Shown: in pieces, positions 17,664 to 21,702 of the stretch
How the letters are laid out: every line of letters begins with the position of its first letter
How positions within the stretch are numbered: position 1 is the first letter of the stretch
From: Chrysochromulina tobinii
Lineage: Eukaryota
Direction of reading: 5' to 3'
Length of the DNA: 39,987 nucleotides
NCBI GenBank assembly: GCA_001275005.1
Contig: JWZX01003138.1
Coordinates: 1-39,987 of the forward strand
Notes under the pieces: generated by a model
Databases searched by the model: none
What the model was told of the DNA's origin: nothing
The model's input: only the letters and a program-made list of their open reading frames with translations
Made by a program: the position numbers and the translations under genes

Positions 17664-19378
17664 GGGCAGGTCGCGGGGATGCCGCGATCGCGGCGGCGCT
17701 CGCCGAAGCTCTTGGAAAATGCGTTCAGGACCGGTCTTGGACGGCTCCGGCTGCCGTGCCCGCCGACCCACCCGCCGCCGCACGCGTGCGCGCGGGTGTG
17801 CAGGCCAGGGACGCATACCTCGCCAATAACAAAAGCCGGCTTGAGGCGGCTTTCAGCGCCGCTGACAACTCGTTGGCAGTCGCACGACCGGAAGACCCAT
17901 TCACCTTTGTGGCGAAACGGGGCTAGAGCACGGTTCGAGCAGGCGCAGGCCAACAACGACGGGGACGACACCAGCCTCGACGGCATCGACGACGCCGTTT
18001 CACTGGCGGCGCAAGCGGCTCAGGTCGCGGTGGCGGTGGCGGAGGCGGTGGCGGAGGCGGAGGCGACGTCGGCAGGGGAACGACTTGCGGGGATGATGCG
18101 CGTCCGGGGCGGCATGGGTGCGGGTGCCTCTGCTTTGTCCGTCGAGAGCCCAGACGCGGACATCAAAGCCGCCTACGAAGGTGCATCGGCGCAGGAGCGG
18201 TCGGTGTTCCTCATCAATGCGGGCGAACAAGAAAAGATGAATATCGTGAGTCTCGGCCTTTTCGTGCCGGAGGCAACAGCTCCATCTGGGCTGACGCCGG
18301 GTGCTTCATCTCCATCCGAGAGCCCGACGCTCGGTCAGCTGAGCGTGCCGCCGACGCTGGATCTGAAGCCTCATGACTTTCGCGAGCTGTGGCACGAGAA
18401 AAAGAGTGCGCGCACCGCCAAGGCACGCGCGAGTGGGCCTTTGCCGAGATCCTCAAGTGGCTCGACGACCCGGCATCGCCCCAGCTCTTCTGGCTGATGG
18501 GTGGCGGCGGCGCCGGAAAGACGGTGCGAACGGCTGAGCTCCTAGACCGTGTCATCCACCGTGCCGTCGCCTGGCACTTTTGCCGCCACGACAACCCGAC
18601 GCAGTCGGCGCCCGGGTCGCTGCTCCGCAGCCGGGCCGCCATGCTCGCACACCGGCTGCCGGGCTACAAGGAGAAGCTTGAGGCCACGGGGGTACCAGGG
18701 GAAGCGGTGGACGACCCATCAGAGCTCTTCACGGTGCTCTTCGAGACGCCGCTGCTAGTCTCGAAGGTCCAGGCGCCCGAGATGCCGTTGCACGTCATCC
18801 TCGACGCGCTCGACGACTGCCCAAGGAGTCGCAGAAGCCGCTGCTCGCCGTCATCGCCAGCCAGCTCTCTCGGCTGCCGTCGTGGCTCAAGCTATTTGTG
18901 ACGTCGCGTGCGGAGCCCCAGATCACGCGGGCTCTCAGCAGCTTCATACCCAAAGAGCTGCTTGCCTATGAGGCCAAGAACAGGGCCGATGTCGAGGTAT
19001 ACCTGCGCACGATCGCGCGCCAGCACATCAAAGGCGAGGCGAGCATCCGCCATTATTGAGGCTGTTGTCAAGCGCAAGTATGACAAGCTTGCATTCCTTG
19101 CAGAAGCCCATGGAGATATCCAAGGCCATCGACGCCAATGTGCGCGAGAAGGTGAGCGCGTAGGAGGGCTACAAAAGACTCATCGCAGAGCCGGATAAGA
19201 GCGCAACGCCGACCTCGTGCAAGTTTCGGACGATTCACACCGTCCATGTGAAGCAGCGCCTGAAGCGCAGGAAAAGCTCGAGTTGCTCGGAGGCGGATGG
19301 GAGGCGGACCCAAACAAGGCAACGCTCCGCCATCCAGTCCAGGGGACGGCAAGAGCGTGGGTCGAGTTTGCTGACTCA

Positions 19379-19690
19379 CCGGGTATCAAGTCAGAGCCAC
19401 GGGTGTCTGAAAAGATGAAGAATGACTACGGTGGCCACGCCAACAAACTCAAGGACCTCGCGCGGCTCACCCTGCGCTTTTTAGCAGCTGCTCGCGCATG
19501 GCACATGCGCTTGCCGAGGGGCTAAAAGGAGGCGGGCATCGAAGTGCTCACGCTCAAGAATAAGTACGCGTCGCCGACGCCGATGGGCTACTCCGACTTC
19601 AACTCGTGTGCCGGAGTCGTGCTTTCAGATGGCACGAGGTACGTGTGCGAGATCCAGCTCAACCACATAGAGATGCTCGCGGCAAAGAAT
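19379..19690 (+). other. RelA/SpoT-like (pol-beta superfamily) nucleotidyltransferase domain within the NACHT pseudogene
   Basis: PGIKSEPRVSEK...DY...LKDLARLTL...LKNKY...GYSDFN...CEIQLNH matches the order of RelA/SpoT synthetase motifs (K..., D..R, GY, EIQ). Two compensating frameshifts near 19480 and 19527. Confidence 0.7.
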
Positions 19691-20523
19691 GTCCGCGAGG
19701 AGCTGCCGGCCCTCTCTGCCAGGGCACAACAGTTGATGCCGGGGATTTTATCGTAGGTCGCCTGAGCACGTCGTCCTTGGATGCAGCAGTTGAGGCACTC
19801 TCGGCCAAGGCGGAGGGCCTCTTCTTGTACGCCTACATGCTCGGCCAGCACCTCGAGAGCGAGGCCAAGAACGGCCACGAGATTCACTTCGAGAACCTCG
19901 ACTCGCTCCCGGCCGGCCTGGGCGAGGTGTGCGCCGTCAACTTCGAGCGCGCCTTTCCATAGGGTCAGGTCGACCCCGCGTGGACCGAGGCGAAGCCCCT
20001 CGTAGAGCTGATTGCGGCAGCGCGCGAGCCGATCACGGTGTCAATGGCGGCGGCGCTCCTTCGATGGGACGACAGGCAGCAGAGGAGCGTGCTTGAGACG
20101 ACGGCACTCCTCTTTCGGGCGCAATGGCAAATTTCATGTCTTTCAGATGACCATCATCGACTGGAAAAACGGGCGAGATCACCGAAGGCAGCTCGATCAG
20201 AGAGCCATCGGCGGAGTTCAAGGAGCAGCGCAAGGACGGGCACGCGATGCTCGCCGAGGGGTTCATCGCGTGGCGCCGCACCGCGACACCAACCGATGGC
20301 GGTGCGCCGGACGAAATGGCGACGTTCTGGCTGCGACACGGCATTTTGCACCTCTGTCGCGCCGATGGCCAGGGCGCGAAAGTTTCCTTCGCTGCCCAAG
20401 CCGCCCACGTGTATGCGACCGACCTCGCATTGCTCCGTGAACGTATCGATAGAGGCCTTCTCTCGATTGTGGCTAAGGACTACCTCGAGCTGCGAGGTGT
20501 GGACGGTGTGGACCTGACAGACG

Positions 20524-20899
20524 TGTTCTTGCCACCTTCCTTGCCACCGTCCCAGATGGCGACGCTCTTAACCCCACTTGTGCTCTCAATCTACTCGATC
20601 AGCTCCTGGCTCTCGGCATCGTTCAAAAAGATGAAGTTGCCTGAGCCGCAGACGATGCGTGTGGAGCCGACCCACAGAGCTGACGGCATTCTTGTGTGGG
20701 CCGAAGCACGCGTCCTTCTCTTGAGATTTGTTACGCCACTCGAGTGCTCGCGTCGGCTGCTCGGACGATCTTTGCGAGGCTGCTGCACAAAACACCGCGC
20801 TTGCATCTGGCTGTTGGAGGGCGAGCTGCATCACTGCCGCGCCCTTGTCACGCTGCAGCACGTCCATGTACTTGCCCACAAATTGGCGCATCTCGGTCG
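20524..20899 (-). other. Inverted segment of the NACHT-WD40 pseudogene
   Basis: The minus strand reads ATEMRQFVGKY...QLALQQPD...LEWRNK...DAC and WD40 text GVKSVAIWDG. This continues the plus-strand ...DGVDLTD and leads into the plus-strand VAGFEDGTIKVW. Confidence 0.85.
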
Positions 20900-21702
20900 C
20901 GTGGCTGGCTTTGAGGACGGGACGATCAAAGTTTGGCCTGGCCCCCCAAACAGAGCCCTCAGAATCGCCCCTCCTTCGCCAAAACTGAAGCCTGCAGGCT
21001 TGTCTGGCAGGCGCGCTGGGGCTGCTGAGCGAAAAGACGGGCCCATCAACTCGGTGGCGTTTTCCCCCGACGGGACCAATATTTTCTCGGGATTGTACGA
21101 CCACGGGACGATATAACGATCAAAGTCTGGGATACAGATTTTTCAACCTGCTCAAAACGCGTCCAGGCGAGGCCATGGCTTTCAGCGAAGAGGCCGATGG
21201 AGTGGTGCGCAATGGCGCGACAATTCGCGTTAAGGACGGGGTTGGTGCATTCTATGCGCCGAGCCCGATCTTGTGTGTGGCTGTGAGTTGGCCTAGGATT
21301 GCTGCCGGCGCACAGTCAGGGGAGCTGAACCACCTCGAGGTGATGGGAGAGCAGCGTATCGCTACCCGAAACCGATTCCCAGAGAAAAAAACACGACAAA
21401 ACTATAAAAATCTCAAAAACTCAACCCTCCCACGACCTCAGCATCTCGCTGCAGTGTGCCACAATCCGAGGGGAGGGGATTCGAGGAAAAAAGGTCTGCG
21501 TTTCGGACCGGTCCGAATCACTCGACGTCGCGTTAGTTTCGGATCGACGGGAAATTCCTTTAAACATGAGTAATCATGAGTCAGTTGAAACCGGGGATGT
21601 CAATGTCGATGGAGTCAAGAGTGGAATTCGCGTCAGGCGGAGGGTGATGGTTGTTCCGTTCGGGGTACATGTGTTGTCCGTTTTTCGTTAGCTCCAATTA
21701 GC

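What the first reader, a model, noticed from the sequence alone, without database searches (positions are those of the whole stretch)
18093..21350. NLR-like NACHT-WD40 receptor with a RelA/SpoT-type nucleotidyltransferase inserted inside the NACHT module
Seen: reading across frameshifts gives NACHT NBD (GTREW, GGGGAGKT, ILDALD, VTSR, NRADVEVYL), then a domain with KSEPRVSEK / KDLAR / KNKY / GYSDFN / EIQ, then resumption of the NACHT helical region (AVEALSAKAEGLFLYA, LPAGL), then WD40 repeats. Established: NACHT-WD40 STAND proteins (fungal HET-E type) are immune or non-self receptors with effectors normally at the N-terminus. RelA/SpoT synthetase domains make (p)ppGpp/(p)ppApp or pyrophosphorylate tRNA in bacterial toxSAS and CapRel anti-phage systems. 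Inference: this algal family may couple STAND activation to alarmone or nucleotidyl-transfer output through an internally inserted enzyme, a possibly undescribed eukaryotic immune architecture. This copy appears dead, so intact paralogues are the target.
Basis: partly seen in the sequence, partly recalled or inferred. Interest (0 to 1): 0.9.

Follow-up and report, generated by a model that had tools for sequence, protein, structure and literature searches.

The report
Algal NLR hiding an alarmone synthetase
This is a dead copy of an algal gene family whose intact members are NLR-type receptor proteins with a bacterial-style alarmone-synthetase domain inserted in the middle of their ATP switch, which likely lets them sense an invader and halt or kill the cell by making a toxic nucleotide, predicted to be (p)ppApp.

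Summary
The window is a Chrysochromulina tobinii contig. It carries a real pseudogene with 12 frameshifts, an internal inversion and one remaining WD40 exon; other assemblies show the same broken locus. Intact single-ORF relatives have NACHT NBD, a 240-308-residue insert inside helical domain 1, WHD, HD2 and WD40 (or ankyrin) repeats. Related NACHTs without the insert have a gap of only -1 to 19 residues at that site. The insert folds as an RSH synthetase (pLDDT 95; the top 11 structural hits are all RSH). Its closest solved sequence is the (p)ppApp toxin Tas1 (E 6e-11), its catalytic residues are conserved, its motifs are Apk-type rather than ppGpp-type, and dN/dS is 0.26. Insert-bearing NBDs form one clade spanning haptophytes, pelagophytes and a diatom. 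In Chrysochromulina-type copies each WD40 repeat is its own 129-nt exon with four hypervariable sites, as in fungal HET-E; one intact copy is transcribed and spliced. Best model (0.55, untested): ligand-triggered STAND activation releases the embedded synthetase, causing (p)ppApp build-up and ATP loss. N-terminal RelA_SpoT fungal NLRs are known; I found no report of this internal, Apk-like form.

The parts
17956..18113 (+). Upstream region homologous to the N-terminal extension of intact paralogues, ending in an R-x-R-G-G sequence like a ubiquitin C-terminus
   Evidence: blastn to L014 starts at 17956; motif survey. The ubiquitin-like reading is recalled; Prymnesium homologues are labelled 'Ubiquitin-like domain-containing'
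18114..18410 (+). Likely start codon (MGAGAS, N-myristoylation-like) and a small helical N-terminal domain; no known death-effector domain
   Evidence: ATG at 18114; no Pfam hit for 18093-18494; helices at 221-254 in the model of P0013
18422..19026 (+). NACHT (NPHP3_N/HET-E type) NBD with Walker A, Walker B and sensor-1, plus the first helix of HD1; frameshifted
   Evidence: Pfam NPHP3_N E 7.9e-21; motifs; indels
19027..19776 (+). Inserted domain: helical N-terminal part, then an RSH/Apk-type pyrophosphokinase core (Syn1 19388-19414, Syn2 19451-19471, Syn3 19586-19603, Syn4 19649-19663); frameshifted, with a 24-nt deletion near 19685
   Evidence: fold and Tas1 similarity; insert boundaries; lesions
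19777..20200 (+). Rest of HD1 and the winged-helix domain; frameshifted, with an in-frame stop near 19960
   Evidence: tblastn to P0013; HD1b-WHD profile; translation. Subdomain names come from STAND anatomy (recalled) and the Apaf-1 match
20200..20523 (+). N-terminal part of HD2 (APAF1_C-like)
   Evidence: APAF1_C E about 2e-6 in intact homologues; tblastn
20523..20902 (-). Inverted segment: end of HD2 and the first, divergent WD40 blade
   Evidence: minus-strand HSPs to P0013 residues 1028-1160; blastn 87-89% in reverse orientation; also seen in L022, L024, L026, L027, L029
20907..20943 (+). End of exon 1 (GFEDGTIKVW), with a damaged splice donor after it
20944..21010 (+). Remnant of the 65-66-nt inter-repeat intron
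   Evidence: sequence compared with intact units; the matching intron of L014 is spliced in RNA
21011..21345 (+). Single decayed WD40 repeat followed by the conserved terminal tail of the gene
   Evidence: Pfam WD40 E 3.7e-6; blastn to the 3' ends of intact loci at 88-92%

Best explanation
The window holds a dead copy of an algal family of NLR-like STAND receptors whose intact members carry an Apk/Tas1-like alarmone-synthetase domain inserted in helical domain 1, and these likely act as immune receptors that, on binding an invader's molecule, would switch the enzyme on to make (p)ppApp, drain ATP and arrest or kill the cell. Shown: the architecture, insertion site, fold, conserved catalytic residues, purifying selection, single origin, exon-encoded variable WD40 array, and transcription and splicing of one intact copy. 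Inferred in order: (1) the WD40 propeller (or ankyrins) binds a variable foreign ligand; (2) the protein is membrane-anchored by N-myristoylation; (3) ADP/ATP exchange rotates NBD-HD1 against WHD and allows oligomerisation, as in other STANDs; (4) because the enzyme is part of HD1, that motion frees or clusters its active site; (5) the product is (p)ppApp; (6) the outcome is growth arrest or death of the infected cell. This copy is an ordinary birth-and-death casualty of a multigene receptor family.
For: Insertion: gap of 240-308 aa in all 44 measurable insert-bearing hits, against -1 to 19 aa in 55 of 56 measurable NACHT relatives without it; 45 of 109 NBD hits carry it. Fold: domain model pLDDT 95; VIA ranks 1-11 are all RSH synthetases (Z 12.7-7.0), with Tas1 at Z 11.3, rmsd 3.6, 152 aligned and the highest identity, 28%; the profile's best PDB hit is Tas1 at E 6.3e-11, then YwaC at 3.3e-5. 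Catalytic K, R, D, R, Y, E, Q are kept in 52-53 of 57 homologues, the rest mostly gaps. Apk-type signatures among 125 NACHT-linked rows: Syn2 R-x-T/S in 114, Syn3 ending in N in 109 and in H in none, Syn4 ending in N or H in 109 and in R in none. PMC12226406 (parts 2-3 of 4 read) gives GxN, RYT and YH as Apk signatures against SxH, AVR and IR. dN/dS: synthetase core 0.26, NBD 0.22. Insert-bearing NBDs form one clade, 98/95. WD40 exons: 40 of 43 are in-register 129-nt units; four sites hold 10, 15, 9 and 11 different residues while 12 sites are invariant; pairwise dN at those four sites over dS elsewhere is 3.3, against 0.21 for the other sites. HET-E repeats diversify at four positions per repeat (PMC4986451 passage). 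No conserved N-terminal death domain; a myristoylation-like start in 44 of 62 insert-bearing proteins against 7 of 59 without the insert. RNA: 66-nt GT..AG intron spliced in 2 of 2 runs read, and a mismatch-free RNA contig spans the NBD-insert junction. A NACHT gene is upregulated in virus-recovered Gephyrocapsa huxleyi cells (PMC12489294 passage; not shown to be this family).
Against: No activity, ligand or infection phenotype was measured. Syn motifs do not fix specificity: swapping them did not convert Apk2 to ppGpp synthesis (PMC12226406), and Syn3 here has D where Apks have G. By structure, the housekeeping SAS proteins YwaC, RelP and RelQ score Z 11.6-12.7, at or slightly above Tas1. A few members have degenerate catalytic motifs (P0105, P0074). 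The same domain family is fused to EF-hands, ion-channel, G-alpha, Roc and UBC domains, which suggests general signalling. The four WD40 sites were chosen after seeing the data, the counts are pairwise and ignore recombination, and short-read assemblies may distort repeat number. The sequence sets are redundant. The 14 RNA runs may be one campaign. The full-length model has pTM 0.50, so domain packing and autoinhibition are not resolved.
Confidence: 0.55

Rival explanations
1. Same receptor logic, different product: the enzyme makes (p)ppGpp or pyrophosphorylates tRNA 3'-CCA ends, as CapRel and FaRel2 do, shutting down translation.
For: Structural scores for SAS proteins (Z 11.6-12.7) and CapRel (Z 9.2) are comparable to Tas1. 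Motif swaps do not predict specificity. SaEAS makes both alarmones (PMC12691689 passages). The insert's variable N-terminal helices (dN/dS 0.77) could bind a macromolecular acceptor.
Against: No His at Syn3 in 125 NACHT-linked rows and no Arg at the Syn4 end. The best sequence hit is Tas1, six orders of magnitude ahead of YwaC. Nearest bacterial-type relatives include a MuF-fused, Apk2-type protein (P0191).
Confidence: 0.17
2. The insert is an integrated decoy or cis-regulator rather than the effector: it binds a pathogen product or inhibitor, or tunes the switch's own nucleotide state, and output comes from another part or a partner protein.
For: An internal position is unusual for an effector. 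Integrated decoys are proposed for fungal and plant NLRs (PMC12258605 passages). Degenerate members exist. An unchecked note of this scan reports an alarmone synthetase in a haptophyte giant virus (e1-5487689), which is a lead only.
Against: Catalytic residues are kept across haptophytes and stramenopiles under purifying selection. A separate, diversifying WD40 sensor is already present. No alternative conserved effector domain was found.
Confidence: 0.13
3. Non-immune signalling: a membrane-anchored, sometimes Ca2+-linked switch makes a low-level nucleotide second messenger for stress or growth control.
For: EF-hands N-terminal to several members. The same domain is fused to ion channels, G-alpha and Roc in other protists. 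Myristoylation-like starts.
Against: A multi-copy family with birth and death, variable repeat number and site-specific hypervariability is the pattern of non-self receptors.
Confidence: 0.13
4. Chance juxtaposition or misassembly.
For: The window copy is broken, and NCBI's model for it (P0053, 'tpr repeat-containing protein') omits most of the insert.
Against: 17 of 33 loci carry the architecture in one ORF; chromosome-scale records in Prymnesium and Pelagomonas; an RNA contig spans the junction.
Confidence: 0.01

Closest known systems
Fungal RelA_SpoT-NACHT-WD40 NLRs (Dyrka et al. 2014, PMC4986451; Sordariales survey, PMC12258605)
   Same: NACHT plus WD40 NLR-like protein carrying an RSH synthetase domain in a eukaryote
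   Different: The fungal domain is N-terminal and defined by Pfam PF04607. Here it is inside HD1, reached PF04607 only weakly in 1 of 20 members (E 0.0036), has Apk-type motifs, and occurs in haptophytes and stramenopiles. I did not compare the fungal domains directly.
HET-E/HET-D/HET-R (NWD family) of Podospora anserina
   Same: NPHP3_N-type NACHT; highly similar WD40 repeats with four hypervariable sites each; variable repeat number; multigene family
   Different: No N-terminal HET effector; each repeat is a separate exon; internal enzyme
Tas1/Apk1 (PDB 6OX6) and MuF-fused Apk2 (p)ppApp synthetase toxins
   Same: Closest solved sequence (E 6e-11, 28% identity in the structural alignment); Syn2 R-x-T, Syn3 ending in N, Syn4 without IR
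   Different: Embedded in a eukaryotic STAND rather than delivered by T6SS or phage; D in place of G at Syn3; no immunity gene expected in trans; activity untested
CapRel fused toxSAS anti-phage system (PMC11782079 passages)
   Same: Sensor and pyrophosphokinase in one polypeptide, controlled in cis by conformational change
   Different: CapRel acts on tRNA and uses a pseudo-zinc-finger sensor; here the sensor is WD40 or ankyrin and the switch is a STAND ATPase
Brown algal ROCO genes with exon-encoded LRRs (PMC11378527, abstract)
   Same: One repeat per exon, repeat shuffling and diversification in candidate algal immune receptors
   Different: Roc-COR GTPase and LRR instead of NACHT and WD40; no alarmone synthetase reported in the abstract

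Membership tests
NACHT-type STAND / NLR-like receptor | NBD with Walker A, Walker B and sensor-1 Arg | tested here: met
   Pfam NPHP3_N, NACHT and AAA_16; Walker A K in 33 of 33, Walker B D in 38 of 38 and sensor R in 40 of 40 ungapped rows
NACHT-type STAND / NLR-like receptor | HD1-WHD-HD2 followed by a repeat sensor | tested here: met
   Best Foldseek hits are Apaf-1, E about 3e-8; APAF1_C, HTH_TANC1, WD40 or Ank
NACHT-type STAND / NLR-like receptor | Ligand-induced oligomerisation and a non-self response | not testable with these tools
   Needs biochemistry and infection assays
Canonical tripartite fungal NLR (HET-E type, RelA_SpoT-NACHT-WD40) | Effector domain N-terminal to the NBD | tested here: not met
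   The enzyme lies inside HD1 in all 44 measurable cases; N-termini vary and carry no shared effector
Canonical tripartite fungal NLR (HET-E type, RelA_SpoT-NACHT-WD40) | Highly conserved WD40 repeats with site-specific diversification | tested here: met
   Mean 84% nucleotide identity among 40 exons and four hypervariable sites; pairwise statistic only, sites chosen after seeing the data
RSH synthetase (SYNTH) superfamily | SYNTH fold | tested here: met
RSH synthetase (SYNTH) superfamily | Syn1-Syn4 catalytic residues | tested here: met
   motif roles recalled and checked against the Tas1 and YwaC alignments printed
Apk (adenosine 3'-pyrophosphokinase) subfamily | Syn2 R-x-T, Syn3 GxN, Syn4 without IR | tested here: inconclusive
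   R-x-T, the terminal N and the Syn4 signature match, but Syn3 is D-x-N rather than G-x-N; the motifs are not sufficient for specificity
Apk (adenosine 3'-pyrophosphokinase) subfamily | Exclusive (p)ppApp synthesis | not testable with these tools
   Needs an enzyme assay
Apk1/Apk2 polymorphic toxins | PAAR or MuF delivery domain | tested here: not met
   Neither domain appears in the Pfam scans of the NACHT-linked proteins

The most novel reading that the evidence does not exclude
Haptophyte and stramenopile phytoplankton have an ancient family of NLR-like receptors whose effector is a (p)ppApp synthetase wired into the STAND switch itself. This would be a eukaryotic nucleotide-toxin resistosome for abortive infection against giant viruses or parasites, and one case of a wider protist habit of inserting this enzyme into NTPase switches such as G-alpha.
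Probability: 0.4. Interest if true: 0.92.

Novelty: new variant of a known kind. Interest (0 to 1): 0.8.

Why it matters
Antiviral mechanisms of marine microalgae are poorly known, and in the papers I read (p)ppApp synthetases are described only as bacterial and phage toxins. This family gives named, intact, expressed genes in bloom-forming algae (Chrysochromulina, Prymnesium, Pelagomonas, a diatom) with a diversifying sensor and a clear catalytic readout. That makes two questions directly testable: whether unicellular algae use NLR-type abortive immunity, and whether eukaryotes make (p)ppApp. An enzyme inside HD1 would also be a different way to couple STAND activation to output than clustering an N-terminal effector.

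Tried and rejected
No own genome was held, so paralogues were counted from metagenome contigs, and a cognate hydrolase (Mesh1/Aph1-like) could not be sought. Pfam does not detect the window's insert and barely detects the family (1 of 20). GTDB genome scan: 6 pattern matches, none confirmed; this is a pattern-limited search and no proof of absence in bacteria. IMG/VR: 1 of 36 matches passed (L034), but its ORF shares only one short peptide and lacks the other Syn motifs, so I rejected it as chance. Annotated phages gave only Bordetella phage PHB04, a hypothetical protein at 36% identity. Cytochrome b562 fusion hits are helical noise. Sequencing error as the cause of the frameshifts was rejected. 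No intact allele at the window's locus was found: its flanks match none of the 14 intact loci compared. Whether the dead copy is transcribed is untested. No phylogeny-based site test of selection on the WD40 exons was done, only pairwise counts. In one search my grouped hypervariable-site statistic used two wrong indices; one search corrects it. An RNA joint skipping 654 nt inside the insert (one contig, depth 2.3, 38 other letters between) was set aside as unsupported. No complex prediction was run. Literature searches and the scan's notes showed no description of this architecture. The library lacks most subscription papers, I opened no supplements, and domain-architecture figures (for example in the Kibby preprint) are not visible.
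Full report
Source and observation. The window is a Chrysochromulina tobinii contig: NCBI's model for this locus came back as a hit, named 'tpr repeat-containing protein', on a 39,987-base contig (P0053). No whole genome was held. 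The NBD matches Pfam NPHP3_N at E 7.9e-21 and one WD40 repeat matches at E 3.7e-6. The insert has no Pfam match, but its best PDB hit is the (p)ppApp synthetase Tas1 (E 2.1e-4).

This copy is a true pseudogene. Against the intact locus L008, 12 of 19 indels in 18113-20523 change the frame, a 24-nt deletion removes conserved residues after Syn4, 20523-20902 is inverted, and one decayed WD40 exon remains. L026 and L027 are 99.985% identical to the window over 20.6 kb; L025 and L029 are above 99.7%; L022 and L024 (99.1%, 98.4%) are also broken. L022, L024, L026, L027 and L029 show the inversion. L031 and L032 are related dead sequences at 97-98%. Neighbouring genes have long open frames. The NCBI model splices around the breaks and drops Syn1 and Syn2.

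Intact relatives. A search with the insert found 57 proteins among 4,371 candidates. Of 33 metagenome loci, 17 carry Walker A, Syn2, Syn3 and the HD1 motif in one ORF, 8 are dead copies and the rest are partial or interrupted. Flank comparison sorts the Chrysochromulina-like intact copies into about five loci besides the dead one; they are 87-98% identical as proteins. Named records with the same layout come from Prymnesium parvum, Pelagomonas calceolata, Pelagophyceae CCMP2097 and the diatom Proboscia alata. C-terminal sensors are WD40 or ankyrin.

It is a clean insertion with one origin. Searching with the NBD alone gave 109 proteins, and 45 carry the insert. The distance from the first HD1 helix to the helix before the GLFLY motif is 240-308 residues in all 44 measurable carriers and -1 to 19 residues in 55 of 56 measurable non-carriers; the exception is a tandem-duplicated MAST-4 protein. 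In an NBD tree of 41 non-redundant carriers and 12 non-carriers that I picked from 64, the carriers form one side of a branch with support 98/95; several branches are long. The full-length model is confident across NBD, insert, WHD and HD2 (block pLDDT mostly 75-95, pTM 0.50), and its best structural matches are Apaf-1. Calling the site HD1 rests on this match and on recalled STAND anatomy.

The insert is an RSH synthetase of Apk type. The domain model has pLDDT 95. All 26 listed Foldseek rows are RSH or SAS-like GTP-pyrophosphokinase-type structures. VIA ranks 1-11 of 48,161 chains are RSH synthetases: YwaC Z 12.7, RelP 12.4, RelQ 11.6, and Tas1 11.3 with rmsd 3.6 over 152 residues and the highest identity, 28%. 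By profile, Tas1 scores E 6.3e-11 and YwaC 3.3e-5. Catalytic positions are kept in 52-53 of 57 homologues. Among 125 redundant NACHT-linked rows, Syn2 is R-x-T/S in 114, Syn3 ends in Asn in 109 and never in His, and Syn4 ends in Asn or His in 109 and never in Arg. PMC12226406 (parts 2 and 3 of 4 read) gives these as Apk rather than ppGpp-synthetase signatures, but also shows that swapping them does not switch the product; here Syn3 has Asp where Apks have Gly. Among seven intact copies, which may include alleles, dN/dS is 0.26 for the core, 0.22 for the NBD, about 0.30 for WHD and HD2 (L015 left out for HD2) and 0.77 for the insert's N-terminal helices. The wider family has 2,953 representatives at E 0.001 or better. 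It includes fusions to G-alpha, Roc, ion-channel, EF-hand, UBC and LRR domains, and MuF or eCIS proteins (49 of 150 scanned).

The sensor looks like that of a non-self receptor. In the Chrysochromulina-type genes, WD40 repeats form 194-195-bp units, each a 129-nt exon and a 65-66-nt phase-1 intron. Intact copies show 2 to 9 such exons; L006 and L008 share their upstream flank yet show 2 and 6, although short-read assembly can distort such counts. Across 40 of 43 in-register exons (mean 84% nucleotide identity), positions 14, 15, 17 and 33 hold 10, 15, 9 and 11 different residues, and 12 positions are invariant. Pairwise dN at those four sites over dS elsewhere is 3.3, against 0.21 for the other sites. 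The sites were chosen after seeing the data and recombination is ignored. HET-E repeats evolve the same way at four positions (PMC4986451, passages), and exon-per-repeat coding is reported for brown algal ROCO LRRs (PMC11378527, abstract). N-termini carry no shared effector. A myristoylation-like start (my recalled pattern) occurs at the first Met or straight after an R-x-R-G-G sequence in 44 of 62 carriers, a redundant set, against 7 of 59 non-carriers.

Expression. Fourteen RNA runs hold more than half the words of intact L014; they may be one campaign. In the 2 of 4 runs that could be read, the 66-nt GT..AG intron before the first WD40 exon is spliced, joints link WD40 exons head to tail, and a mismatch-free contig spans the NBD-insert junction. 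The insert's 3' junction is not bridged by any listed piece, and 221 pieces were not shown. Contigs give no expression level. Transcription of the dead copy is untested.

Mechanism. Most likely (0.55), ligand binding to the propeller triggers nucleotide exchange and the NBD-HD1 rotation and oligomerisation known for STANDs (recalled). This frees or clusters the HD1-embedded enzyme, which makes (p)ppApp, drains ATP and stops the infected cell. Control in cis has a precedent in CapRel, and Tas1 depletes ATP (PMC11782079, passages). Rivals are a ppGpp or tRNA product (0.17), an integrated decoy or regulator (0.13), non-immune signalling (0.13) and artefact (0.01). No step of the output has been measured.

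Comparison and novelty. RelA_SpoT is a rare N-terminal domain of fungal NLRs, including NACHT-WD40 forms (PMC4986451; PMC12258605, passages). Divergent SAS proteins were noted in fungi, Dictyostelium and diatoms (PMC3153485, passages). Transmembrane regions are sometimes inserted into bacterial NACHT modules (bioRxiv 2022.07.19.500537, passages). Apk1, Apk2 and exported synthetases are described from bacteria and phages (PMC10083569 and PMC12691689, passages). A NACHT transcript rises in virus-recovered G. huxleyi (PMC12489294, passages). A word search of 10.64898/2026.01.04.697583 found no alarmone effector. Ten literature searches (listings and abstract starts) showed no account of an Apk-like enzyme inside HD1 or of this algal family; subscription papers, figures and supplements were not seen. 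Verdict: a new variant of a known kind, interest 0.8. The window copy matters only as a pointer to the intact family.

Noticed in passing
P0141 (Didymoeca costata): A G-alpha protein with the same synthetase-like domain inserted between its P-loop and later G motifs: a second case of insertion into an NTPase switch. Its Syn3 has Trp in place of Tyr.
   Followed up: partly
P0159, P0161, P0177, P0164, P0178, P0180, P0184, P0198: The domain is fused to Roc, ion-channel plus EF-hand, UBC and multi-EF-hand proteins; the four of these whose motifs I printed have a GW variant at Syn3.
   Followed up: partly
window 18093-18131; P0061, P0214-P0216, P0225-P0227: An R-x-R-G-G sequence directly precedes a Gly-led myristoylation-like motif; in Prymnesium it follows a ubiquitin-like domain. 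Cleavage there could expose the lipidation site.
   Followed up: partly
L015 4814-9343; P0007: One intact copy has an unrelated C-terminal domain after HD2, followed by a second WHD-HD2-WD40 segment, which suggests internal duplication or sensor swapping.
   Followed up: no
P0105, P0074: Members with degenerate synthetase motifs; P0074 appears to lack the NBD and carries BspA-type LRRs.
   Followed up: partly
H1 (MF663786.1, 36181-36501): A hypothetical protein of Bordetella phage vB_BbrM_PHB04 matches the synthetase core at 36% identity, E 6e-9: a candidate unannotated Apk.
   Followed up: no
P0240 (MAST-4): A tandem-duplicated NACHT protein with TIR-like stretches, close to the family but without the insert.
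   Followed up: no
window 21360-21950: A low-GC stretch (52% in 21001-22000) just downstream of the pseudogene, with a short repeated motif; possibly a mobile-element remnant.
   Followed up: no
window 35855-36103: A decamer tandem array with a 65-nt duplication.
   Followed up: no
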